Part shown: positions 1,849 through 25,817 of the stretch, piece by piece
How positions within the stretch are numbered: the first letter of the stretch is position 1
Layout: every line of letters begins with the position of its first letter
Virus record (IMG/VR): IMGVR_UViG_3300005254_000140
Coordinates: 1 to 26,836 of that record
Source of the DNA: a virus
Lineage: Duplodnaviria > Caudoviricetes
DNA: 26,836 nt
Strand: one strand, 5' to 3'
Position numbers and translations under genes: made by a program
Notes under the pieces: generated by a model
Database searches by the model: none
The model's input: only the letters and a program-made list of their open reading frames with translations
Told to the model about the DNA's origin: nothing

Positions 1849-1875
1849 TGCTTGCTTCCTCTTGTTGCGTTAGAT

Positions 1876-1912
1876 CCTCACCCTACCCTCTCCCCGGATG
1901 GGAGAGGGTGAG
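1876..1912. repeat. BoxC/REP-like palindromic element
   Basis: cctcaccct-accctctccc-cggat-gggagagggt-gag: a 10-bp perfect stem with a pyrimidine-rich leader, immediately after the sheath stop codon. Confidence 0.55.
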
Positions 1913-1918
1913 CAATCG

Positions 1919-3388
1919 TTACTTGCGGAACTGCACCTGCTGGGCATGCACGCGGTACTGGCCGACCAGCTTGGGGCTGTCCTGAATGTTCAGGCGGTTA
2001 CGGTCGCCGCCGCCGATGCCGTCGCCGATCTCGCAGACAATGCTCTGCTTGTAGCCGTCATAGTCCTGCACCCAGCCCTTGTTTTCCTGGCTGCGGTACA
2101 GCGCGAGCAGCTCGGCCTTGCCGAGCTTGGGCTGCATGACGGACTGGCCGGCGCCGATGCGGGCGTCGTCTTCGGCGAGCTTGTGGCGCGGGTACTTGGA
2201 GCTGAACAGCTGGCGCTGCTCGAAGCGGATCTGCTCCAGCGTCTCGGGTACGGTGATGTCGAGGTAGGAGTCGTCGGCGATGTCGGCGGCGTTCACCTGG
2301 TACATGGTGATCTGCCGCTCGATCATCACACTGCCGTCGCTGCCGACCTTGTAGCTGGCGATGCCGTCGAACAGCAGCAGATTGCGCTCGGCATCGGTCC
2401 AGCGGGTTTCGATGGCCGGCGCCATGATGTAGGGCAGCTTGAGCGTCTGCAGCGGGCGGGCCGGGTCGATGCTGAGCGAAGCGGCGGCGATCACCGCGTT
2501 CACCGCGGCCCAGATGTAGGGCGGCTGGGGCGCGATGTTGGTGCCCATGCAGGTGACGTGCGGATTGTTGCGCGCATCGCCGTGGGTAACGGTGTCGGCA
2601 TGGTTGCCACGGAAGGCGGTGAAGGCGCGCGCGCCGATCTGCCGGGTCGGTCCCCAGCGGCTGTCGAGCTCGGTCTCCAGCTTAACCAGGTTGGCGGTGT
2701 CAGTGAACGGGCAGACGATCCAGTTGTACCACTCGTCGCCCATCACCGCGATGGCGGTGTCGAGATCCGGGTTGGTGGTGCCGCTGGCCATGTCGACGAT
2801 GGTGCAGGTGATGCCCTTCGGCAGCTGCTCGCCGTAGTAACCGGTGCGCACATCGATGTCGTTGCCGGTCTCGCCCTTCCAGCGGGCGGTGAGCGTGACC
2901 ACGCCCAGCGCGGCGGCTGCGGTGACCGGCAGAGTGGTGTCGGCCGTGATGGCGGCGGCGATGGCCGCGGCGATGGCGGTGGCATCGTCGGTGGCGGTGA
3001 CGGCCACGTTCACCTGCTTGCCGGCGACGTACAGCGCGAGGGTGCCGGTACTGGTGGCGGTGCCGGCGATGGTGATCGTGCCGGTGGCGACGACGCCTGC
3101 GGCGGCTTCATCCAGGGCGATGGCAGTGATGTTCATCCACTGGTTGGCGGCGAACAGTGCGATCAGCTGCTCGGCCAGCATGGAGCCGCGACCGAAATAC
3201 TCCTCGGCCTGCGCCGGGGAGGTGACGCGGGTCGGCACGCCCTCGGCCACAGTGCCGGCGGCGAGGCGCTGGCCGACCACCAGGATCTTGAAATTGGGCG
3301 CGGCGTTGTTGGCCAGCGAGTTGTCGAACTCGACATACACGCCGGGGACACGCAGCGCGGCCGGGATGGCATTGAATGAAATCGGCAT
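1919..3388 (-). CDS. Tail sheath protein (Mu gpL-like)
   Basis: 489 aa; MPISFNAIPAALRVPGVYVEFDNS start, FGRGSML, DPARPLQTL, YPRHKLA motifs typical of Mu-type sheaths. Confidence 0.95.
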   Translation of the reverse strand: MPISFNAIPAALRVPGVYVEFDNSLANNAAPNFKILVVGQRLAAGTVAEGVPTRVTSPAQAEEYFGRGSMLAEQLIALFAANQWMNITAIALDEAAAGVVATGTITIAGTATSTGTLALYVAGKQVNVAVTATDDATAIAAAIAAAITADTTLPVTAAAALGVVTLTARWKGETGNDIDVRTGYYGEQLPKGITCTIVDMASGTTNPDLDTAIAVMGDEWYNWIVCPFTDTANLVKLETELDSRWGPTRQIGARAFTAFRGNHADTVTHGDARNNPHVTCMGTNIAPQPPYIWAAVNAVIAAASLSIDPARPLQTLKLPYIMAPAIETRWTDAERNLLLFDGIASYKVGSDGSVMIERQITMYQVNAADIADDSYLDITVPETLEQIRFEQRQLFSSKYPRHKLAEDDARIGAGQSVMQPKLGKAELLALYRSQENKGWVQDYDGYKQSIVCEIGDGIGGGDRNRLNIQDSPKLVGQYRVHAQQVQFRK

Positions 3389-3395
3389 GACTCAG

Positions 3396-3581
3396 TTACT
3401 CCTTGTTGTTGCCGGGCTTGGCCGGGCGCTTGACCTCGACCACGCTGCCGTCACGGAGACGACGCACCCAGTAGGTGGTGCGCTCCACTTCCGCACCCGC
3501 TTCGGGCAGGAACTCGCGCTTGCCCTCCAGGTGCACCTTGTTGCCGGGCCTGGCCGGCTTGATGGTGATTTTGTTGCTCAT
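3396..3581 (-). CDS. DUF2635-like small protein (Mu gp38-like)
   Basis: 61 aa with the LPEAGAEV...YWVRRLRDGSV motif, immediately upstream of the sheath gene. Confidence 0.8.
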   Translation of the reverse strand: MSNKITIKPARPGNKVHLEGKREFLPEAGAEVERTTYWVRRLRDGSVVEVKRPAKPGNNKE

Positions 3582-3584
3582 GGA

Positions 3585-4151
3585 TTACCCCTTGGGTGTG
3601 TCAGGTAGGTTGGTGTTATCGAGAGCGGCCGGCTCGTCTGCGCCTGCCGTCATGCTGTGATCGGCATCGACGTTATCCAGGTCACCGACGCTGATGGTGA
3701 CCACGCTCACGCCGTCTGCCGGGTTGGCGCTCCAGATGTTTTCGCCGATGCTGAGGCCGAGGCGAAACTCCACGGCCCAGACCAGGTAGGCCTGCAGCTC
3801 CGGCTTGAAGTTGTCTTCGCTGACACGCAATACCTCGGCGTTCTGCGCAACATCATCACTGCCGAAATCTTCTTCTTGAGAAACACGCACTGCGACGGTG
3901 GCGGCAAGGTTGCGCACTTCATGCTGTGCATTCGCGGCGTTCGGGTCATAGATGCAGTACGCCGTGAAGCGCGCCCAGCAATCGAAAGCGGCGTCTTCAC
4001 CGAAGTCGTCAGGCTCCAGCTCTTCCAGTTCCACCAGCACGGCGGGGATTGAGACCCTGCGCTCGATCTTCGGGTAGTCATCGCAGGTGGCAAGGCCGGG
4101 GATATCGGCATTCAGGCGAGCGACGATGGTGGAGTGCAAGGCGTCAAGCAC
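3585..4151 (-). CDS. Putative tail terminator/completion protein
   Basis: 188 aa acidic protein (PAVLVEL...YLVWAVEF); assigned mainly from its position between neck genes and sheath. Confidence 0.55.
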   Translation of the reverse strand: MLDALHSTIVARLNADIPGLATCDDYPKIERRVSIPAVLVELEELEPDDFGEDAAFDCWARFTAYCIYDPNAANAQHEVRNLAATVAVRVSQEEDFGSDDVAQNAEVLRVSEDNFKPELQAYLVWAVEFRLGLSIGENIWSANPADGVSVVTISVGDLDNVDADHSMTAGADEPAALDNTNLPDTPKG

Positions 4152-4719: not shown

Positions 4720-4991
4720 CAGCCCTTAAACCCCAGGCCGATTGCCGCCAGCGCCAGTGACCCGATGATTGCCAGGCCGAGAAACGCGCGCCAGAACAGG
4801 GTGCGTGCGTTGCGGTAGGCGTTAATCAGATCGCGCAGGGTGTGGATATCGTCGTCCTCCAGTTTGCGGATACGGCGGTGGTCCTGATAGTGCGATTCCG
4901 GGTCCACCCAGAACTCATGTTTCTGCGCGTGTATCCGCTCGATGAGCTGGTCGGCAACGCGGTCGATGTCGGCGGAATCCAGCGGCATCAC
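4719..4991 (-). CDS. Small membrane protein with one C-terminal TM helix (possible holin/antiholin)
   Basis: C-terminal LFWRAFLGLAIIGSLALAAIGLGF; overlaps both neighbours (translational coupling). Confidence 0.6.
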   Translation of the reverse strand: MMPLDSADIDRVADQLIERIHAQKHEFWVDPESHYQDHRRIRKLEDDDIHTLRDLINAYRNARTLFWRAFLGLAIIGSLALAAIGLGFKG

Positions 4992-5530
4992 GTCCGCCCC
5001 TTTTTACCGAAGCCGTCGAAGGTGCGCATGGTCATGTAGGTACCGCAGGGGGAGAACAGCACGGCGGCAACCGCAACATCTGCACCAGGCACGGAACCGC
5101 TCCAGGCAACACTGATCAGGTGCGCCGCTTCTGCCACCAGGCAATAGCCGATAGTGGCGTAACCGGATAGGCGCGCAATCTTCGGCCGCGTCTCCTTGAC
5201 GTAGTCAGTGCCGTGCTCCGCCTCGGTCTGGATGGTCTTTTGACTGGCCGCATGGCGCGCGGTTTCCGCTTCCAGGTCCGCCTTGTGGCGTTCCAGTGCG
5301 AGTTCCTCCAGGCGCTCCTTGTGGCGGGTTTCGATTTCGCGCAACTTCAATGCGGCTTGCGGGTCGTTCTCGATGGCCCGCTTGATGGCTGCCGGGTCAT
5401 CGGCGTCCACGCCGAACGCCGAGGCCACCAGCTTGCCGATAGCGGCACCGCCAGGGCCGGCGATAGCGCCGCCCAACAAAGGCGCCGCCTTGGCGACGGT
5501 ATTGCCGAGATCACTCCAAAAGTCGCTCAC
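4988..5530 (-). CDS. Putative holin (3TM/GTA-release-like)
   Basis: N-terminal APLLGGAIAGPGG, a coiled coil, then RP followed by two hydrophobic helices. Confidence 0.55.
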   Translation of the reverse strand: MSDFWSDLGNTVAKAAPLLGGAIAGPGGAAIGKLVASAFGVDADDPAAIKRAIENDPQAALKLREIETRHKERLEELALERHKADLEAETARHAASQKTIQTEAEHGTDYVKETRPKIARLSGYATIGYCLVAEAAHLISVAWSGSVPGADVAVAAVLFSPCGTYMTMRTFDGFGKKGRT

Positions 5531-6822: not shown

Positions 6823-8676
6823 TTATGAGTTGATGCAGAAGCTTTCTGCATGGCCAATCGCGACATCGGCATCCTGGAACACGCGCAGGATGAGTCCGCC
6901 GGAACCGGCCTTGGTGGCGAGGTCCGGGTTGACATCGATGACGCCCCAGAAGCCGACCATGACATCCTCCCAGTTACCGAACATGAGGGAGTTGGCGGCG
7001 AGCTGGTTGGAGACGGCAACCGGATGGCCGTTGGCGTTGTCGCCATCCATCAGGAACAGGCCGCTGCCGGCGTCCTTGGCGGTGGTCTTGAGGTTGCCGC
7101 GCACGCCGGAGGTGGTGACGTATGCGAGCTTGCCTTCCAGCGCGTTGTCGGCGGCAACGGCAGTTTCGAAGCCGACCAGCTCCGACCAGGTCGGCTCGCC
7201 GGCAGAGGCAATGCTCTGGGTGTTGATACCGGGCATTTTGGAAATGCCGAGCGGCTGGTTGTTGGTGCCGGCGCCGGCCAGGATGCCGTAGTCAACGCCG
7301 AGCGCAGCGCCCTTGAGCAGGGCGTTGTGCACCACGCGCTCCACGCTCGGGCTGCTCTGCTTGAGCAGGCGCCGGGACATCGGCACGCCACCGGCCAGGG
7401 TCTTCGGCGCCATCTTGATCAGGCCGGTATCCATGTCGGTGAGGTTGGCGTCGTCATCGTCGCCAATCCAGCCGAAGATCGGGTTGGTGAGCGCGCGCGG
7501 CAGTTCCAGGTTGCCGTCGAGTCCGTCCATCACGGTGGCACCGAGCTGCATCACCACCGAGCGCGGACGCAGGGTGTCGATGAACATGTCGCTCATGTGC
7601 TGGGTGGCGGTCAGGTCGGCGTTGGTGGTGGCGTTCATCACGCGGGTGACCACATCCAGCGGGACGAAGAAACCGCGTGCCTCGCGGCCCAGGCGGTCGG
7701 TCAGTTCGCGGGAGCACTCCATCTCGAAGGCCGCGGCCTTCATCGCCTTGTGGTCGCCGTTGCGGGCAGCCACCACGGCGTTGATGGCGCGCATCAGGCT
7801 GTAGTTGCGCAGGTCGCCGGCGGAGAGATCCAGGCGGGTATCGGCAGGAGCATCGCCGCGGGTGCCTGCGTTATCCTCGGAGGGCAGGCGTTCCAGGATG
7901 GCGCGCTGCAGGTCCTCTGGGCTTTTGCCCTTGGCGATGTACTCCTCGGCCAGCTCGCGGGCGCCGTACTTGGCATAGCGGGTGCCCATGGCCATCAGGT
8001 CGGCCACGCGCTTCTGCTCGATGGCGCGCACCTCGTTTTCGATGGCGGTACGGTCGACCTGCGCGGGTGCTGCAGGGCTGTTGTTGTCGGCGGTACGGGT
8101 GTTCTGTGCGCCGCCCGGGTTGGTGTTTTCGTCAGGCATGATGTTGTCCTCAACTTCGATTTCAAAAGAATCGCCGGCGGCACGGCCGACACCTACGGAG
8201 ATATCAGCCGGCACGGTGACCAGGCTGATTTCGAGCGGCTCCCAGTCGGTAGCGCGATAGACGTTCGGGCCGTCTTCACGCTCCTCCTCGAGAACCAACT
8301 TGTGAACGCGATAAGCGAAGGAGACAGCGGTAAGGATGCCGTCCAACACATCGCGGAATTTTTCTTCAGCGACAGGGGAATTGCCGAAACGCACCACGGC
8401 CTTGCCGCGGCGGTTTTCGATCTTGATGTCACGCACCGCGCCGATGTGCGTGTTCCAGTTATGATTGAACAACAACGGACCGTTGGCGCGCATGCGATCC
8501 AGCCGCACCGCCTTTGGCGAGTGGTCGAGCACCTCCACGCCGAACCAGCGCTCCACGTCGCGTGTCTCGCTGGAAAAGCTGAGCTCGACCGTGCGCTCCT
8601 CCTCGTTCACCGCCTCGCGGCTGAGCATGAACGACCGCTGCAGCGGTGCGTCGCATTTAATCTTGCGTGTTGCCAT
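6823..8676 (-). CDS. Prohead protease-major capsid protein fusion (HK97 fold)
   Basis: Likely start MATRKIK at 8676 (GAGGA RBS), 617 aa. N-terminal protease motifs LLFNHN, VSFAY and WEPLEISLVTVPAD; low-complexity linker; then capsid domain (PKTLAG, ILAGAGTNNQPLGI, FGNW). Confidence 0.92.
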   Translation of the reverse strand: MATRKIKCDAPLQRSFMLSREAVNEEERTVELSFSSETRDVERWFGVEVLDHSPKAVRLDRMRANGPLLFNHNWNTHIGAVRDIKIENRRGKAVVRFGNSPVAEEKFRDVLDGILTAVSFAYRVHKLVLEEEREDGPNVYRATDWEPLEISLVTVPADISVGVGRAAGDSFEIEVEDNIMPDENTNPGGAQNTRTADNNSPAAPAQVDRTAIENEVRAIEQKRVADLMAMGTRYAKYGARELAEEYIAKGKSPEDLQRAILERLPSEDNAGTRGDAPADTRLDLSAGDLRNYSLMRAINAVVAARNGDHKAMKAAAFEMECSRELTDRLGREARGFFVPLDVVTRVMNATTNADLTATQHMSDMFIDTLRPRSVVMQLGATVMDGLDGNLELPRALTNPIFGWIGDDDDANLTDMDTGLIKMAPKTLAGGVPMSRRLLKQSSPSVERVVHNALLKGAALGVDYGILAGAGTNNQPLGISKMPGINTQSIASAGEPTWSELVGFETAVAADNALEGKLAYVTTSGVRGNLKTTAKDAGSGLFLMDGDNANGHPVAVSNQLAANSLMFGNWEDVMVGFWGVIDVNPDLATKAGSGGLILRVFQDADVAIGHAESFCINS

Positions 8677-10207
8677 TGTCTTCATCCTCTTGCTTTGCCG
8701 GCGCTGTCTTTTCCGACGCGAGCACCGGGAACGAAACCTTTTTCTGCTCGACCATCGCCTGGAACTCGGCGATCTGCTCGAGCACCTCTTCCACATCGAG
8801 ACCCATCTCGGAAGCGACGCGCTGCGGGCTGGTGAGCCCGGCATTGATGGCGGCGATAACCGCCTGGATATCCTTGAGCGGGTCCACCCAGCTCCAGCGC
8901 CGGCCCTGGTGGCGGTGCTCACTGAAGCGGTCGATGAGTTCTTCTTGAGAAACAACGCCGCCGAGGCGGCCATGGAATACCGCGTTTTCCAGCCAGCGCA
9001 GGTAAATGCGCTCCTTGACGGCGGAGATGTAGGAGTCCTGCTTGACCTTCCAGCGCTCACGCTCTTCCAGCGTGCCGCTGCGGATGCTGGAAAAATTCAC
9101 GTCGGTGAGGTCGCCGGTCAGCCCGTGATAGGAGACGCCGGTGCCCATCGCCATGTCGCGCTTCAGGGTTTTGGTGAAGGGCTCGAAATTCTCGTGCGGG
9201 TATTTCGGGTCGAAGCCGACGAAAGTTTTGTCTCCGCTGAGGTGGCCGATGGTGCCGGCCTCGATCTCCTCGATGAGGTCGCCGTTGCTGTCGACCTCGT
9301 CGGCCTCGTCCATCGCGTGGCCGTTGCCTTCTTTGTCGACCACCCAGCCCATTTTGCTGGCGCCGTAGCGGGCGGCGACGATGGCGGTCTCGATGTACTG
9401 GGAGAGCTGGTGGATATCCAGCATGGCGCTGGCCAGCCAGCTCACGCCGCGCAGCTGCTCTGGCCGGTCGGCCTCGAACCAGTGGATGATGTCCTCTGCC
9501 GGCACGCGCTCGTGCTCGTCGCGGATGTGCACCCAGCCGACCCGCTCGCCCTTCTTCAGCCAGTACGCCACCGGGCGGCCTGCCGCGTTGAGCTCGACGC
9601 CCAGGCGGATGCGGTTGCCGTTTTTCAGGTCGACGTTGAGCATATGGTCCAGCCGCGCCGGGTCCAGCAGCTCGATGACGAACCCCCACGGATTGCGGCG
9701 CGTCGGCTGCACATCGTGCAGGCGGATGAGGCTCTCGCCGTCACGGGCGGTAGTGCGCACCGAGACGCGGTCGCAGCCCTGCAGGGAGAGCTTGCCGGTG
9801 ATTTCGCACACACCTCGGCGCGCCCATTGGCGATACTCGCGCTCGGCCAGCGCATTACCGACGCTGTCGAGCTTGCCGTCACGCTTCTTGCCCATCACCT
9901 GGGTGACAAAGCCGTTGGGGCCGACGATATGGGTTTCGTTGAGGGAGAAGAAAGAGCGCGCCAGGTTGCTGTTCTGCTCCAGCTCGCGGGCGCGCAGGCG
10001 AATGATGGGGAGCTGGCTCTTGAGTTCCTGGTTGATATCGCCGCCACCGCTGAGCCAGTCGGCGGTAAGGCGATCCGTCTTCGCCGCCTTCCAGGCTCGC
10101 GCGACAGCAAACGGACGCCAGCGCGAACGGCGGCGACGAGCAACCTCCTCAGCCGCTGCCGCCTGAGTGTCTTCCCTGCGCGTTAATTTTGAGAGCCAGC
10201 TCGCCAT
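8657..10207 (-). CDS. Portal protein, lambda family
   Basis: RARELEQN, IRLGVELNAAGRPVAYW, RPEQLRGVSW, VNFSSIRSG and WVDPLKD motifs. Start at ATG 10207 (or GTG 10213). Confidence 0.95.
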   Translation of the reverse strand: MASWLSKLTRREDTQAAAAEEVARRRRSRWRPFAVARAWKAAKTDRLTADWLSGGGDINQELKSQLPIIRLRARELEQNSNLARSFFSLNETHIVGPNGFVTQVMGKKRDGKLDSVGNALAEREYRQWARRGVCEITGKLSLQGCDRVSVRTTARDGESLIRLHDVQPTRRNPWGFVIELLDPARLDHMLNVDLKNGNRIRLGVELNAAGRPVAYWLKKGERVGWVHIRDEHERVPAEDIIHWFEADRPEQLRGVSWLASAMLDIHQLSQYIETAIVAARYGASKMGWVVDKEGNGHAMDEADEVDSNGDLIEEIEAGTIGHLSGDKTFVGFDPKYPHENFEPFTKTLKRDMAMGTGVSYHGLTGDLTDVNFSSIRSGTLEERERWKVKQDSYISAVKERIYLRWLENAVFHGRLGGVVSQEELIDRFSEHRHQGRRWSWVDPLKDIQAVIAAINAGLTSPQRVASEMGLDVEEVLEQIAEFQAMVEQKKVSFPVLASEKTAPAKQEDEDNGNTQD

Positions 10208-10260
10208 GAGCACCGATTGTCCGGTGCTCTGATGTGACGGTTATATATACAGCGTCAGAG

Positions 10261-10371
10261 ATTGAGCGGACTCAGCTAAAGCTGCGCGGGTTTCGGTGTC
10301 CGTGGTTTCGTTTGCCATGTTCGCTTCTCGTGGTTTCGTTTCCGGCGGGCCGCTAAAGCAGGGCGTTAGCC
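10261..10371 (+). mobile_element. attC-like site 1 (left end degenerate)
   Basis: L''-like ttgagcggac pairs imperfectly with gccgctaaa. G/T-rich centre. Ends GGGC-GTTAGCC (R', 10365-10371). No intact RYYYAAC at the left end. Confidence 0.6.
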
Positions 10372-10605
10372 GTTGAAGTTCACCGGCTCACCGTTCAGCC
10401 GCGTGATACTGGTGGCGGCGTACTCCCCTTCACCGGAGGCCGAGATGATCTCGTTGCCTTCCCAGTGATCGAAGATGATCCAGCGCTTCGTTCCGGGGCA
10501 TTTGGTAACCGTGATCCGATCGCCCTTCTTCAGCACCTTCTTTGCCGCCTCTGTTGCTTTGGCCAGCCGCTCTCTCCTGGCCTGCCGTTCCTCTTCCGTA
10601 TACAT
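10366..10605 (-). CDS. Cassette A hypothetical protein (79 aa)
   Basis: MYTEEERQARR... with GGAG RBS; the TAA lies within the R' box of attC1. Confidence 0.8.
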   Translation of the reverse strand: MYTEEERQARRERLAKATEAAKKVLKKGDRITVTKCPGTKRWIIFDHWEGNEIISASGEGEYAATSITRLNGEPVNFNG

Positions 10606-10628
10606 CGCCGTTTCTCCAAGCCTTACTC

Positions 10629-10733
10629 GGCTAACAAGGCCGCTCCAGCCGACAGGCAAAAGCGGCGCGGTTTCAGTTTTCTATCTGGCCTCGGTTGGCC
10701 GCTTTTGCCGTCGGCTGAGCGGCGGCGTTATGT
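10629..10733 (+). mobile_element. attC site 2 (canonical, 105 bp)
   Basis: GGCTAAC-aaggc-CGCTCCAGCCGAC-A-GGCAAAAGCGGC ... GCCGCTTTTGCC-GTCGGCTGAGCG-gcggc-GTTATGT. It has R''/R' boxes, 5-nt spacers, long paired arms and two unpaired bases (C and A on top, i.e. extrahelical G and T on the bottom strand). Confidence 0.9.
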
Positions 10734-10871
10734 GCCTTTGCGCATCCGCTTAATATAGGCATCAACTTTTACCTTCTCGGCATCGGTTAGGTAATACTCA
10801 CGCCGCTTCTGCCCGACATCGGCCCTGCGTTTCCGCAGGGCCTCCTGTTTCTGCTTGTTAGTGAGGGCCAT
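10728..10871 (-). CDS. Cassette B small basic protein, likely DNA-binding (47 aa)
   Basis: Hand-translated MALTNKQKQEALRKRRADVGQKRREYYLTDAEKVKVDAYIKRMRKGT*. TGATG coupling to the upstream gene; the TAA lies in the R' box of attC2. Confidence 0.75.
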   Translation of the reverse strand: MALTNKQKQEALRKRRADVGQKRREYYLTDAEKVKVDAYIKRMRKGT

Positions 10872-11110
10872 CAAACATAATCGCCTTCGGCATCTCGCAT
10901 GGTGATAACGGCTATGGTTTCTCCGTTCCAGGCCAGGTTGTCTGCCTGCGTTTCACCGCGCTCATAGGCGGCAGCAACGACGAGAGCGGCTTCTTCGCTG
11001 GTAGCGGCTACCAGGATGCTGTTTTCTCCATCCCACTCGGCATTTTCGTCTGCGGCGGTAACGTCGCCCTGGTCAACAAGGTAAAGACTCAGTTCGTTGT
11101 AGTTGCTCAT
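10871..11110 (-). CDS. Cassette B acidic hypothetical protein (79 aa)
   Basis: Strong AAGGAG RBS; lies directly downstream of its own sigma70-like promoter. Confidence 0.8.
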   Translation of the reverse strand: MSNYNELSLYLVDQGDVTAADENAEWDGENSILVAATSEEAALVVAAAYERGETQADNLAWNGETIAVITMRDAEGDYV

Positions 11111-11162
11111 GGTCGCTTCTCCTTTCTAGGCTTCGGGCTAATTCCCTCCGTCCTTGGTAATA

Positions 11163-11191
11163 ATACTAGCGTGGTTACCGGTAACCGTCAA
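11163..11191 (-). promoter_or_regulatory. Sigma70 promoter with palindromic operator in cassette B
   Basis: TTGACG-17 nt-TAGTAT on the minus strand. The perfect 14-bp palindrome GGTTACCGGTAACC (11173-11186) lies in the spacer. A/T tract upstream (11204-11220). Confidence 0.8.
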
Positions 11192-11229
11192 GAGGGAGGA
11201 TGCACTTTTTTAAAAAAAGTTACCCCGGC

Positions 11230-11377
11230 ACATAACCCGGCGCTTCAGCCGATTCGTCGCCGCGATGCGGCTCTCCGCACCTCGCGTCAGTGCGCCTCGG
11301 TCTTGGTTTCGGTGCTGGCCTTGGTTTTGGTGATCCTCTCATCGTCTGCTCCGCGCCGGTAAGCTGTCTCGTTATGA
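11230..11377 (+). mobile_element. attC-like site 3 (148 bp)
   Basis: ACATAAC-ccggc-GCTTCAGCCG ... CGGTAAGC-tgtctc-GTTATGA, with a G/T-rich centre; arms are less perfect than in attC2. Confidence 0.75.
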
Positions 11378-11578
11378 ATACTTCGCGCACCCGAGGCACA
11401 CGTGCATCCAATCATCAATCCTGAAATATTGCTCCCCAACTGCAATCTCATCCCCGCACACGCGGCACTTCGTTGGCTTCGCTCTCTTTCCCTTGTTCAT
11501 ACCGCGCACGGTGAACGGCACCCTCACATCCGCCGGCTTTCCGCCGATCTCGGTCACATGAACCATATTCATAACCAT
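11372..11578 (-). CDS. Cassette C small zinc-finger protein
   Basis: CRVC...CLGC; start at ATG 11578 or 11572 (GAGGTG RBS); the TAA lies in the R' box of attC3. Confidence 0.7.
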   Translation of the reverse strand: MVMNMVHVTEIGGKPADVRVPFTVRGMNKGKRAKPTKCRVCGDEIAVGEQYFRIDDWMHVCLGCAKYS

Positions 11579-11880
11579 CACCTCAGCCAGTACCAGGTCT
11601 CACGCCTGGCGATCTGCCCAATCGTCATGATATGCACGCCCTTCATCACCGCGACCTCCTGCTGCGTGTGTTTCTCGAGAAGCAGACGGATGTCCCGCAC
11701 GTCGCAGGCGCTGAGCTTGGTGGTGGCCTTCGGCGCCTTGACGCGGTAACTGCGCAGCAGGCGGAAGAAGTGACCGCGTGAGACGCCGGCCAATTGTGCC
11801 GCCCTGGCACGGTTCAGGCCTGCCATGGCCAGGCACATCATGACCTCTGCTTTGCTGGGTGTGCTGTGAATGGCGTGCAT
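11578..11880 (-). CDS. Tandem HTH protein (Fis-like HTH plus second HTH)
   Basis: GLNRARAAQLAGVSRGHFFRLL, then KLSACDVRDIR...TQQEVA...TIGQIARRETW; AAGGAG RBS. Confidence 0.75.
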   Translation of the reverse strand: MHAIHSTPSKAEVMMCLAMAGLNRARAAQLAGVSRGHFFRLLRSYRVKAPKATTKLSACDVRDIRLLLEKHTQQEVAVMKGVHIMTIGQIARRETWYWLR

Positions 11881-11892
11881 ACTGTTCTCCTC

Positions 11893-12441
11893 TTAGCGAG
11901 TGAAACGGATCTTGATCTTGTTCTGCGGGCGTTCGCCACGCTCCAGGGCGGCGGCGGTCTCTTCGCTTTTCACCTCGCGCCGGTATCGGTCACGGGCGAC
12001 GATGAGCTCTGCGCTCTTGCGCTCGATGGCGCGCTCCCCGAACTGCCCTTTAATGAGATCCATTTCGTCAGCTGTGGCACGCCCCTCGAGCGCTGCCTCG
12101 ATGGCGTCGAGCATCTTGCGGGCGTGGCTGCGCCCATCGTATGGCCCGGCGGTGAGATCCGGTGTGATGATGATGGTGCCGGCGAACAGCGATCGCTTGC
12201 GCCCGTCGGTGTGGGTGACATAGGCGGTCCAGTCATAGCGCCCGGATGCCCAGGTTGCCGTGGTGGCGCTGTCGACGCTGACCGCGTGATTGTCGCCATC
12301 AGCAGCACTGGTGATGCTGTAGACGGCTGTGGCGTTGAATAGCGCGTAGTGCAGCGTCCACCCATCGCTTGCCGGGTAGTCCGGTAGACTGCGGTTCCAG
12401 TCGAGTGAATCGCCGGCGGCGATTTTTCCGGGTTCGTTCAT
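11893..12441 (-). CDS. Head-tail adaptor (gpW-like C-terminus)
   Basis: 182 aa directly after the terminase; LDAIEAALEGRA...ELIVARDRYRREV; GGAGG RBS. Confidence 0.6.
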   Translation of the reverse strand: MNEPGKIAAGDSLDWNRSLPDYPASDGWTLHYALFNATAVYSITSAADGDNHAVSVDSATTATWASGRYDWTAYVTHTDGRKRSLFAGTIIITPDLTAGPYDGRSHARKMLDAIEAALEGRATADEMDLIKGQFGERAIERKSAELIVARDRYRREVKSEETAAALERGERPQNKIKIRFTR

Positions 12442-12449
12442 ATTGCCTC

Positions 12450-14432
12450 CTAGAAGTTCTGCCAGACGTTGCGCTTGCGCTTGCGCCTGGGCTTTGCGGG
12501 TGGTGGGGTTTCTTTCTTGCTGGCGACGCTTTCTGCAACGGCGGCGTGCTCTTTTTCCAGAGCCGCAGCAGGTGCTGGTGCTGGCGCATCCTGGTTGGAA
12601 AACAGGTCCTTGATGACCGGCTGTACCTTGGCTTCGATCTTCTCCCAGTCCTTATCGCGCAGCTTGTCGATGCGGATCTCCGGATGGCAGGCTGCGGCCA
12701 CGGCATAGACGGTGGTGTCCAGAAATTCGTTGCGCTTGTGGCGCGGCTTGACCCAACGCTGGCGTGTGGTGTCGTAACGCTCGGCGGTGAGTTGCTGGAA
12801 GAACTCGTCTGGCATGTCGCTGGGGAAGCGGAAGCGCTGGTCTTCATATTCCGCGCCATGGTCGGCGGTGAGCTTGGCAAAGATGGCGCCCTTCGCGGTG
12901 TCGGTGCCGACATGCCACAGGTCGACGCCGGCGCGAATGATGCGGCCGCGCACATTCACGTCTTGCGGCGAAGGCCTGCTCGGGAGTATCGGGCGGCCGT
13001 AGAACTTGGACCCCTTCATCGCCATCACGCGGCGATGCTTCCGGGTGCGGCAATACTGGTAGGCCATGTGGGTGTGGTGTCCGCCGGTGTCGACGCCCAT
13101 GCCCAGGACCTTCATCTCCACGCCGTAGCGGTTGGCGAAGCGCGCATCGAGGACGGTATCGAGTTTTTCCCACTCCTCCTCGACGCCTGGCTGGCCTGGA
13201 ACTTCCCAGGCATCGATGGTGAACCATCGGCCACGACCAAAGCCCATGATCTCGATGGCCCAGCGATCGTCCTGGGTATCCACCCCGGCGGTGAGCAGCA
13301 GGCAGCCATCCGGGATGGTGCGCGAGCTGTAGCCGCCGGCGCGATCGGCCACATCCTTCCATTCCACCTTGCCGGATTCGTCCTCGTAGGTCTCGGCCAT
13401 GATGGTGTTGGTGTAGGTTTTCGACTCCTCAGGATCTTCTTTGGCTTTTGCTCGCAGCTCAGTGATTTCCAGCCAGGTGTAACCCAGGCCGAGCGGCGCG
13501 TAGTAGCTCGGCAGTTTGAATCCCGGGATCGGGCTTTCCGGGTTATGAGCAACCCACACGCCGTTAGCCAACATCTCGGTTTTGTGGTGCTCGTCAATCA
13601 CGCAGCCATTAGCCGGGCAGCCGAAGGTGCCGTCATCCTGCAGATGTTCGTCATCCAGCACGATGAGCTGACTGCAGTGAGGGCACGGCAGGTGATAGTG
13701 GCGCTGGTCTGACTGCAGGAATTCCGCTTCGATGGCCGACTCGTCTTTGGTGGTCGGCGTCGAAGTAATGAGAATTTTGCGGCGCGGGAAGGTGGAGGTG
13801 CGGCGCTCTGCCAGGGATATCGGATCGCCCTCGCCATCAACATCGGCAGGATAGGCGTCGACCTCATCCAGGAACAGGAAGCGCACCGGCGTTGAACGCA
13901 GTGCCGCGGCAGAGTTTGCGCCGGCGATCACCAGCACGCCACCGGGGAACTCCTTCATGCTCGAGGTGTTGCCGCTATCGCGGGAACGCGCCGGTTTGAT
14001 CAGGCCTTGCAGCACCTTGGTGTGCTCAACCATCGGGTTAAATCGCTGGCGAGCCCAACGCTTGGTGGCGATCTCCACGGTCGGCTGCACTACCATCACC
14101 GGCGCAGGAGACTGGTGGATGATGCTGCCGAGCCAGTTGTTGCCGACCTCGGTTTTCCCCACCTGCGTGCCGGCGATAAATACCACCTTCTTGCACGGAT
14201 GGTCAGGGCTCAGGCACTGCATGATCTCCCGCAGGTATGGCGTGCGGTCGGTGCGCCACGGTCCGGGCTCTGAGGAACTCTCACGCGGTAGGACGCGGTG
14301 GGCATCAGCCCACTCGTCGACCGGCACCGGTTCGGGAATGGCCCAGCCGTTGGCCCACGCCTGCGCAAACTCCTCACCACCGTTGTCCAGGTGGTAGAGC
14401 TCATCAGCGGCAGGCTTCAGCACGGCGTTCAC
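12450..14432 (-). CDS. Terminase large subunit (lambda gpA family)
   Basis: Walker A-like GTQVGKTE, Walker B FLFLDEVD, STPT, LPCPHC, LTAGVDTQ, RNEFLD. Likely GTG start at 14432 overlapping the terS stop. Confidence 0.96.
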   Translation of the reverse strand: MNAVLKPAADELYHLDNGGEEFAQAWANGWAIPEPVPVDEWADAHRVLPRESSSEPGPWRTDRTPYLREIMQCLSPDHPCKKVVFIAGTQVGKTEVGNNWLGSIIHQSPAPVMVVQPTVEIATKRWARQRFNPMVEHTKVLQGLIKPARSRDSGNTSSMKEFPGGVLVIAGANSAAALRSTPVRFLFLDEVDAYPADVDGEGDPISLAERRTSTFPRRKILITSTPTTKDESAIEAEFLQSDQRHYHLPCPHCSQLIVLDDEHLQDDGTFGCPANGCVIDEHHKTEMLANGVWVAHNPESPIPGFKLPSYYAPLGLGYTWLEITELRAKAKEDPEESKTYTNTIMAETYEDESGKVEWKDVADRAGGYSSRTIPDGCLLLTAGVDTQDDRWAIEIMGFGRGRWFTIDAWEVPGQPGVEEEWEKLDTVLDARFANRYGVEMKVLGMGVDTGGHHTHMAYQYCRTRKHRRVMAMKGSKFYGRPILPSRPSPQDVNVRGRIIRAGVDLWHVGTDTAKGAIFAKLTADHGAEYEDQRFRFPSDMPDEFFQQLTAERYDTTRQRWVKPRHKRNEFLDTTVYAVAAACHPEIRIDKLRDKDWEKIEAKVQPVIKDLFSNQDAPAPAPAAALEKEHAAVAESVASKKETPPPAKPRRKRKRNVWQNF

Positions 14433-24902: not shown

Positions 24903-25075
24903 TGCCACTCGAATCCATCGCCAGCATCCTGATGCGCCGCGACGGCATGAGCCGCACCGACGCCGAAGAGCGCGTCGCCGAAGCACGCGACAGAGTCGCC
25001 GAGGGAGAAAACCCCGAAGAGATCCTCCTCGACGACTTCGGCCTTGAGCCTGACTACATCTTTGAACTGCTTTAA
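24902..25075 (+). CDS. Small hypothetical protein (57 aa)
   Basis: GGAGG RBS, TGATG coupling; MPLESIASILMRRDGMS...FGLEPDYIFELL. Confidence 0.75.
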   Translation: MPLESIASILMRRDGMSRTDAEERVAEARDRVAEGENPEEILLDDFGLEPDYIFELL

Positions 25076-25103
25076 CCAACCACCAACAGCAAGGAGAAAG
25101 ACA

Positions 25104-25292
25104 GTGCCTGATTTCGCATTCATCAATGGTCAACCGGTCACCATCATAGTCAGCGGTGAGACTGGCAGGATTACCGCTCGTGCAGAGTATGCAAACACCG
25201 ATGACCACCGGTATCTCGTTCATTACAAGGCAGCAGATGGTCGCGCTGTTGAAGACTGGTGGTACGAAAGCCAACTGAAAGAAGCCAGATAA
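25104..25292 (+). CDS. Small SH3-like hypothetical protein (62 aa)
   Basis: AAGGAG RBS, GTG start; SGETGRITARAEY...DGRAVEDWW. Confidence 0.7.
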   Translation: MPDFAFINGQPVTIIVSGETGRITARAEYANTDDHRYLVHYKAADGRAVEDWWYESQLKEAR

Positions 25293-25331: not shown

Positions 25332-25817
25332 ATGCCCCACTTCGGCAACAGCTCACGCCGCAAGCTCGCCACTGCGCACCCCATGCTGCAGGAGCTCTGC
25401 AATCGCGTCGTTGAGCACCACGACATCACCATCCTCATCGGCCACCGCACCGAGGAAGAACAGAACGCCGCCCATGCCAGCGGCGCCAGCACCAAGCCGT
25501 TCCCGCAGAGCAAGCACAACGTGTTCCCCTCCATGGCCGTCGACGTCGCGCCGTGGCCCATCCCGGAAGGCTGGGGAGACCTCAACGGCCAGGCACCCAA
25601 GGCAAGGGACTTGGAATGGAAAGAGCGCGTGAAGTTCTACGAAATGATCGCCTGCTTCCGCTTTGCCTGGAACCAGATGATGAGCGACTTTCCCGAGCTG
25701 CGCTGGAAATACCGCCTGCGCTTCGGCGCCGACTGGGATGGCGACAACGACTATCGCGACCAGACCTTTGACGACCTGCCGCATATTGAGCTCATCGAGC
25801 TCAAGGCTGGTGTGTGA
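25332..25817 (+). CDS. M15-family zinc peptidase (L-Ala-D-Glu endopeptidase/endolysin-like)
   Basis: GHRTEEEQ, SKHN-x5-AVD, GADW and DLPHIEL motifs; TAAGGAG RBS. Confidence 0.88.
   Translation: MPHFGNSSRRKLATAHPMLQELCNRVVEHHDITILIGHRTEEEQNAAHASGASTKPFPQSKHNVFPSMAVDVAPWPIPEGWGDLNGQAPKARDLEWKERVKFYEMIACFRFAWNQMMSDFPELRWKYRLRFGADWDGDNDYRDQTFDDLPHIELIELKAGV

What the first reader, a model, noticed from the sequence alone, without database searches (positions are those of the whole stretch)
10365..11377. Mirror-image cassettes: genes antisense to attC with stop codons in the R' box
Seen in sequence: the unpaired C and A in the left arm of attC2 and the G/T-rich centres make the plus strand the conventional attC top strand. 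Yet all four cassette ORFs are on the minus strand, and the last ORF of each cassette ends with TAA inside GTTA of R' (10366, 10728, 11372). Established: ordinary cassettes are mostly co-oriented with attC and often stop in or near R''. Inference: three of three inverted cassettes with identical stop placement suggests a distinct, phage-adapted cassette class expressed from the phage late transcript instead of Pc, possibly built by a different route.
Basis: partly seen in the sequence, partly recalled or inferred. Interest (0 to 1): 0.75.

Follow-up and report, generated by a model that had tools for sequence, protein, structure and literature searches.

The report
Backward integron cassettes in phage operons
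This prophage carries small integron-type gene cassettes whose genes lie on the opposite strand to those of ordinary integron cassettes, a layout shared by most phage-borne cassettes surveyed here, and one that likely lets a host integrase add new genes directly behind the stop codons of phage genes.

Summary
Confirmed and general. The window is a provirus without IntI. Between an HTH gene and the portal gene lies an eroded attC array: one intact site, one degenerate, two half sites. Models trained on IntI-anchored attC sites call the plus strand top. The four cargo genes are on minus; three stop on the TAA inside R'.

In IMG/VR loci found by attC motifs, 102 of 149 cassettes are antisense (63 stopping in R'), against 4 of 107 beside IntI. 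Sequence blocks shared between phage arrays end at the R' G|TT crossover, so these cassettes likely move by the normal IntI rule, with attC 5' of the gene.

Best model: host IntI inserts them at GTTA, the reverse of a TAAC stop, appending genes in sense to phage operons. 'Late transcript' is too narrow: one cassette has its own promoter-like site, and a relative carries such an array in its early region. A different route of cassette building is not shown. Phage attC clusters are published; I found this class undescribed in ten literature searches. This scan noted it before on other DNA.

The parts
8657..10213 (-). portal gene, downstream flank of the array
   Evidence: PHROG 21, E 1e-92
10241..10318 (-). 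25-codon ORF starting inside the attC1 loop; probably the stump of a deleted inverted cassette gene; it stops in native phage sequence
   Evidence: the block around 10240 aligns with relatives; stump reading is inference from similar in-attC starts
10260..10371 (+). attC1, truncated: right arm and R' (10365-10371) present, R'' missing; left edge of the insert near 10260
   Evidence: right-arm score best of 691; alignment to relatives breaks near 10260; no significant fold
10366..10605 (-). cassette A gene, 79 aa, function unknown, predicted helix plus SH3-like barrel; stop in R' of attC1
   Evidence: 58 homologs; model pLDDT 85; no PDB match at E<=0.001
10629..10733 (+). attC2, intact, top strand = plus; own site of cassette A; R'' complements 8 nt of the R' at 10365
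10728..10871 (-). cassette B second gene, 47 aa, basic, overlapping the stop of the first gene; stop in R' of attC2
   Evidence: no Pfam or PHROG family; no relative among fetched loci except the source contig; not searched in the large protein database
10871..11110 (-). cassette B first gene, 79 aa, function unknown
   Evidence: 18 hits including itself; weak PHROG 5444; no PDB match
11163..11191 (-). sigma70-like promoter inside cassette B, with a 14-bp palindrome (11173-11186) in its spacer
   Evidence: only promoter hit in 10150-12500, 9 of 12 matches, shuffle mean 0.8; palindrome read
11230..11377 (+). attC3, degenerate or hybrid, top strand = plus; R'' complements 10 nt of the R' at 10727
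11372..11572 (-). cassette C gene, 66 aa, two CxxC motifs; start codon inside the orphan R'', stop in R' of attC3
   Evidence: one other homolog at 80%; weak PHROG hits
11566..11575 (+). orphan R'' box, perfect 10-nt inverted match to 11371-11380; the rest of its attC is missing
   Evidence: left-arm strand score only 1.8
11578..11880 (-). HTH gene, conserved upstream flank of the variable locus
   Evidence: Pfam HTH_23; present in 10 of 36 head-tail-joining loci

Best explanation
The stretch is an eroded array of integron-type cassettes without an integrase gene, in which each gene lies on the attC bottom strand with its own attC on its 5' side, and which was likely assembled by a host IntI acting in trans. 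Shown: polarity of the sites, antisense real genes, stops in R', the same layout in most phage-borne cassettes sampled, and shuffling breakpoints at G|TT in other phage arrays. Inferred: the crossover G|TTA is the reverse complement of a TAAC stop. A circle of this class inserted at such a stop would leave the resident gene intact, place the new gene directly behind it in the sense of the operon (often with ribosome site and start in or just after the attC loop), and end in a fresh TAAC target. Selection would thus favour inverted cassettes as operon-appending modules for phage accessory genes, read from the local phage transcript or, for cassette B, from an internal promoter. In this prophage loss of half sites would have fixed most of the array.
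For: Strand; bottom-strand G and T bulge rule from PMC5027507 passages. Real genes. In inverted arrays PHROG hits fall on 11 of 39 antisense ORFs and 0 of 36 top-strand ORFs (95 ORFs picked by hand). Class: 102 of 149 against 4 of 107; 84 of 102 antisense ORFs have an SD motif and 99% have a pyrimidine-rich top strand. Variable locus: different arrays between HTH and portal in L003, L004/L005 and L008, none seen in L007, L009, L014, L015. Mobile unit: of 33 block ends, 8 at R' (6 distinct junctions), 1 at R'', 4 inside attC, 20 elsewhere; L381/L427 share the attC on the gene's 5' side at 98% and the other at 40%. TAAC is the commonest stop tetramer in the window, 8 of 38 genes. No IntI over cut-off in the window or in 10 phage records, two of them 96% and 100% complete. 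IntI inserts cassettes at GWT genome sites (bioRxiv 2022.09.11.507474 passages), and IntI1 recombines phage attC sites (PMC9892861 section 3.4).
Against: No recombination was observed for these sites. Neither edge of the window's insert is a clean G|TT junction: attC1 is cut in its left arm, and the HTH gene ends in TGA. Only one site is intact. Stops in R' (63 of 102) mirror stops in R'' of ordinary cassettes (33 of 82), so stop placement may reflect how all cassettes are made rather than targeting. Sense cassettes also occur in phage contigs (29 of 149; L006 at the same locus; TJE1). Cassette B may not need a phage transcript. The host and its IntI are unknown. The survey motifs favour proteobacterial-type attC, and IMG/VR contigs may include host flanks.
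Confidence: 0.62

Rival explanations
1. Ordinary cassettes: minus is the top strand and the genes stop in R'' as usual.
For: R boxes are symmetric, and on minus each gene ends in TAAC just before a hairpin. attC2 has an unusual 6-nt left spacer and the lowest classifier margin (+8.1).
Against: Bulges, covariance model and classifier all give plus. Genome sites found with attC2's right-arm motif give 16 sense and 0 antisense of 23 cassettes. Breakpoints fall at the plus-type R'.
Confidence: 0.03
2. A piece of a host chromosomal integron that happened to hold inverted, self-expressed cassettes was captured by illegitimate recombination; no special class or targeting.
For: Both edges lie inside attC sites. 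Cassette B has a promoter-like site. An inverted cassette A relative sits in a chromosomal-looking array (L262). Qi et al. propose illegitimate capture.
Against: Only 4 of 107 IntI-adjacent cassettes are antisense, against 102 of 149 in viral loci. Cargo families are otherwise plain phage operon genes. Unrelated arrays recur at the same phage locus.
Confidence: 0.1
3. The hairpins persist mainly as RNA or DNA linkers (translation starts, transcript processing, short homology for phage recombinases), and genes are swapped by homologous recombination between them, not by IntI.
For: 30 of 102 antisense ORFs start inside the attC. No IntI in these phages. 4 block ends fall inside attC. attC3 looks hybrid.
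Against: Block ends cluster at the G|TT point with unlike sequence on the other side. R'/R'' complementarity of 8-12 nt is kept as in IntI arrays.
Confidence: 0.13
4. A phage-encoded or other non-IntI tyrosine recombinase handles this class.
For: The phages carry tyrosine recombinases. One relative's second array lies next to its integrase. The window is cut off after an excisionase.
Against: Those enzymes are 354-458 aa and far below the IntI cut-off. The HTH-portal arrays lie far from them. The sites keep IntI-type bulges.
Confidence: 0.1

Closest known systems
Phage CALINs (Qi et al. 2023, PMC9892861; methods, section 3.4 and supplement passages read, figures not seen)
   Same: Clusters of attC without IntI in phage genomes, small cargo genes and methyltransferases; their sites recombine with IntI1.
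   Different: The text read does not describe genes antisense to attC as a class. On my test their TJE1 array is sense, but their MW202573 array is inverted: four sites on minus at E<0.001, annotated genes on plus.
Canonical integron cassettes of sedentary and mobile integrons (PMC4889954, PMC5027507, PMC8876359; passages)
   Same: R''-L''-L'-R' hairpin, bottom-strand G and T bulges, crossover at G|TT, extended R'/R'' complementarity, stop codon often in an R box.
   Different: Gene on the bottom strand, attC 5' of the gene, stop in R' instead of R''; no intI, attI or Pc; co-directional with a phage operon.
attG insertion, SALINs and small CALINs (bioRxiv 10.1101/2022.09.11.507474; passages)
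   Same: IntI in trans inserts cassettes at GWT sites outside integrons; they can be expressed from resident promoters.
   Different: Shown for sense cassettes in bacterial chromosomes. Insertion at stop codons of phage operons is my inference.
Individually inverted cassettes with their own promoters (symE cassette in Xanthomonas, bioRxiv 10.1101/2025.06.18.660453 passage; inverted toxin-antitoxin cassettes of Vibrio, recalled)
   Same: Gene opposite to Pc direction; cassette B has its own promoter-like site.
   Different: Those are exceptions within sense arrays. Here whole arrays are inverted and most cassettes seem promoterless.
Phage morons (recalled term)
   Same: Accessory genes slotted between conserved phage genes, some with their own promoter.
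   Different: Bounded by attC sites with a defined crossover point.

Membership tests
attC site | R'' and R' core boxes with conserved AAC/GTT, L''/L' boxes, hairpin | tested here: met
   attC2: CM 40.1 bits, fold z -5.9/-6.9. attC3 weak, attC1 lacks R''.
attC site | extrahelical G and T on the bottom strand, opposite the AAC arm | tested here: met
   attC2 minus-strand fold; rule from PMC5027507 passages
attC site | IntI-mediated bottom-strand recombination at G|TT | not testable with these tools
   Indirect only: breakpoints in other phage arrays at R'
CALIN | two or more attC on one strand within 4 kb | tested here: inconclusive
   One significant CM hit, one weak (E 6.3), one half site; IntegronFinder itself not available
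CALIN | no neighbouring intI | tested here: met
   TIGR02249 no match in the record; record 69% complete
complete integron | intI, attI and Pc at the head of the array | tested here: not met
   No IntI; the left flank is native phage sequence
canonical gene cassette | ORF on the top strand, ending at or near R'' | tested here: not met
   All four genes on the bottom strand
canonical gene cassette | R' at one end complementary to R'' at the other (circular form) | tested here: met
   Runs of 8, 10, 10 nt; IntI control mean 8.6

The most novel reading that the evidence does not exclude
Phages are cassette factories. Successive attC insertions at TAAC stops turn ordinary phage operon genes into a separate, mirror-image cassette pool that phages shuffle with borrowed host IntI and occasionally hand to bacterial integrons. 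This would give a concrete route to the open question of how cassettes arise. Consistent: both cargo families also occur as plain phage genes without attC, cassette B1 relatives end in TAAC without attC (L324, L326), and the same gene A carries unrelated attC sites in the window, L262, L269 and L041. Against: simple insertion does not explain the 8-12 nt R'/R'' match.
Probability: 0.25. Interest if true: 0.9.

Novelty: new variant of a known kind. Interest (0 to 1): 0.7.

Why it matters
Integron cassettes are treated as promoterless genes co-oriented with attC and read from Pc. In this sample most phage-borne cassettes follow the mirror layout and carry phage accessory genes, so the IntI-attC system may serve phages as an operon-extension tool, not only bacteria as a defence and resistance bank. 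It predicts a testable targeting rule (TAAC stops), explains a recurring variable slot in these phage genomes, and offers genes in both cassette and non-cassette form for studying cassette origin.

Tried and rejected
BLAST of the array against annotated phages gave no match; attC2 against plasmids gave only chance hits. Viral-contig scans with the HTH and cassette B1 proteins found no relatives. One public run holds the stretch and may be its source; no RNA holder listed. Its single contig shows no joints, and contigs drop rare variants, so this says nothing on excision. The 25-codon ORF's stop at GTTATAT 10240 was considered as a fourth cassette junction or attI and rejected: the block is native in relatives. 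Unusually long R'/R'' complementarity as a mark of a special building route is weak: 9.6 against 8.6 nt, p 0.02, on 18 hand-picked phage cassettes with runs of 3 dropped and 4 of 56 control runs under 5 dropped. Cargo function: Pfam, PHROGs, Atlas and Foldseek gave nothing significant. My first simple attC scanners missed attC3 or attC2. Two doubtful control sites of 94 and duplicates were dropped before training (83 kept). Host flanks of the 44-kb source contig could not be read, so the host and its IntI remain unknown. Literature searches listed no paper whose title or abstract start describes an antisense phage cassette class; the library lacks most subscription journals, and figures of PMC9892861 were not seen.

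Full report
Context. The window is a whole IMG/VR provirus record (26.8 kb, 69% complete) with no IntI match. PHROGs place terminase, head-tail joining protein, portal, capsid and contractile tail genes on the minus strand. The finding lies between an HTH gene (11578-11880) and the portal gene (8657-10213).

Anatomy. On the plus strand there are R' boxes at 10365, 10727 and 11371 and R'' boxes at 10629, 11230 and 11566-11575. Each R' is complemented by the next R'' over 8, 10 and 10 nt. attC2 (10629-10733) is a clean hairpin, z -5.9/-6.9. attC3 (11230-11377) folds no better than shuffles, and the attC1 region does not fold. Alignment with relatives shows native phage sequence up to about 10260, so attC1 has lost its R''. 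At the other end only the R'' of a fourth site remains, abutting the HTH stop. The array is real but eroded.

Which strand is top. I fetched 20 regions beside intI genes, oriented them by intI, and detected 94 sites; 83 were kept after dropping two doubtful sites and duplicates. A strand classifier was right for 83 of 83 in leave-one-locus-out tests. It calls plus top for attC2 (+8.1), attC3 (+24.5) and the right arm of attC1 (+14.0). A covariance model from 55 of the sites hits attC2 on plus at 40.1 bits and attC3 on plus at 8 bits, neither on minus. The minus strand carries the G and T bulges that PMC5027507 (passages) assigns to the bottom strand.

The minus-strand genes are real. Gene A has 58 homologs, B1 has 18 hits including itself, and C has one other at 80%. 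B2 (47 aa) has none among fetched loci and was not searched more widely. A, B1 and the 25-codon ORF have SD-like motifs. The cassette bodies are purine-poor on plus (0.37-0.43). Functions stay unknown. In most of 48 loci with a gene A relative no attC is evident by eye. The model, run on 16 of them, found an attC directly 5' of the gene with the same inverted polarity in L041, L262, L269 and L303. L262 looks like a chromosomal array (inference from a 1.7-kb contig). B1 relatives occur without attC and ending in TAAC (L324, L326), and in a sense cassette in L325.

A variable slot. Of 36 loci with a head-tail joining relative, 10 have the HTH gene. The HTH-portal gap holds unrelated inverted arrays in L003 (six sites), L004/L005 and L008 (by eye), one weak site in L002, a sense array with a reverse transcriptase and a metalloprotease-like gene in L006, and no detected site in L007, L009, L014 and L015. 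In every case seen the genes follow the direction of the operon; attC polarity is what varies. The closest complete relative (G266) has a second inverted array of six sites in its early region.

Survey. Three attC motifs, chosen without regard to ORFs, gave 225 viral loci; 132 had full sites and 64 had complete cassettes. Of 149 unique cassettes 102 are antisense, 29 sense and 18 unclear. Beside IntI the counts are 4, 82 and 21 of 107, and in genome motif hits 0, 16 and 7 of 23 (Fisher p 2e-29, cassettes not independent). After clustering, 37 of 54 groups are antisense, 8 sense, 9 tied. 84 of the 102 antisense ORFs have an SD motif against 3 of the 29 'sense' ones, so some of the latter may be misclassed. 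63 of 102 stop on the TAA in R', 30 start inside their attC, and those reading past R' end at offsets that are multiples of three. Ordinary cassettes stop on the TAA of R'' in 33 of 82. PHROG hits fall on 11 of 39 antisense and 0 of 36 top-strand ORFs in inverted arrays (95 ORFs picked by hand).

Mobile unit. Among 33 distinct ends of blocks shared between phage loci, 8 lie at R' (six distinct junctions, several exactly at G|TT), 1 at R'', 4 inside attC and 20 elsewhere. One cassette in two contexts keeps the attC on the gene's 5' side (98%) and not the other (40%). This is the normal IntI crossover. No IntI over cut-off was found in 10 phage records, two near complete, and IntI-like hits occur in only 2 of the viral loci screened.

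Mechanism. Inferred: host IntI works in trans. It can insert cassettes at GWT sites outside integrons (bioRxiv 2022.09.11.507474, passages) and recombines phage attC sites (PMC9892861 section 3.4). GTTA is the reverse complement of TAAC, the commonest stop tetramer in this phage (8 of 38 genes). An inverted cassette entering there would keep the resident stop, follow it in sense, and end in a new target. The idea of stop-codon targeting was also in titles of earlier scan notes; I tested it only indirectly. Against: the window's own edges are not G|TT junctions, cassette B has a promoter-like site (not significant alone), sense cassettes occur in phages, and stop placement mirrors that of ordinary cassettes.

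Known work. Phage attC clusters are published (PMC9892861). Their TJE1 array is sense and their MW202573 array is inverted on my test; the text I read does not remark on this, and I could not see the figures. Single inverted cassettes are known. Ten searches listed no description of the class. PMC8618304 (passages) lists cassette formation as an open question. PMC4889954, PMC8876359, PMC13108822 and PMC13323075 were seen as passages only.

Verdict. Observation confirmed with corrections; class supported; late-only expression and a distinct building route not shown. New variant of a known kind, interest 0.7.

Noticed in passing
L006:5227-8099: Sense-polarity cassettes at the same HTH-portal locus carry a 528-aa reverse transcriptase-like gene and a 248-aa metalloprotease-like gene, possibly defence cargo captured from a host integron.
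   Followed up: partly
window 25044-25292 and L008:2388-2636: The L008 cassette gene looks by eye like a relative of an ordinary early-region gene of this prophage that has no attC.
   Followed up: no
G266:C1:1-1650 and 38449-38534 (L465, L466): Second inverted array of six attC sites between the endolysin and the integrase of the closest complete relative; the matching region of the window has no model hit.
   Followed up: partly
L464 (MW202573) 1860-3738: A published phage CALIN is itself an inverted array.
   Followed up: yes
L268, L274, L283, L284: Gene A relatives flanked by a different hairpin repeat with TAAC/GTTA ends (Bacteroidota-like label recalled), missed by my model where tested; apparently also antisense.
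   Followed up: no
viral loci, e.g. L003, L095, L361: ORFs starting in the attC loop share an N-terminal peptide encoded by the attC left arm, which could serve as a protein-level tag for finding this class.
   Followed up: no
window 10215-10260: Block just upstream of the portal gene is conserved in L002, L003 and L008 and may be a late promoter or HTH binding site.
   Followed up: partly
window 25332-25817: Endolysin gene sits on the plus strand in the early region, apart from the holin-like gene at 4988-5530.
   Followed up: no
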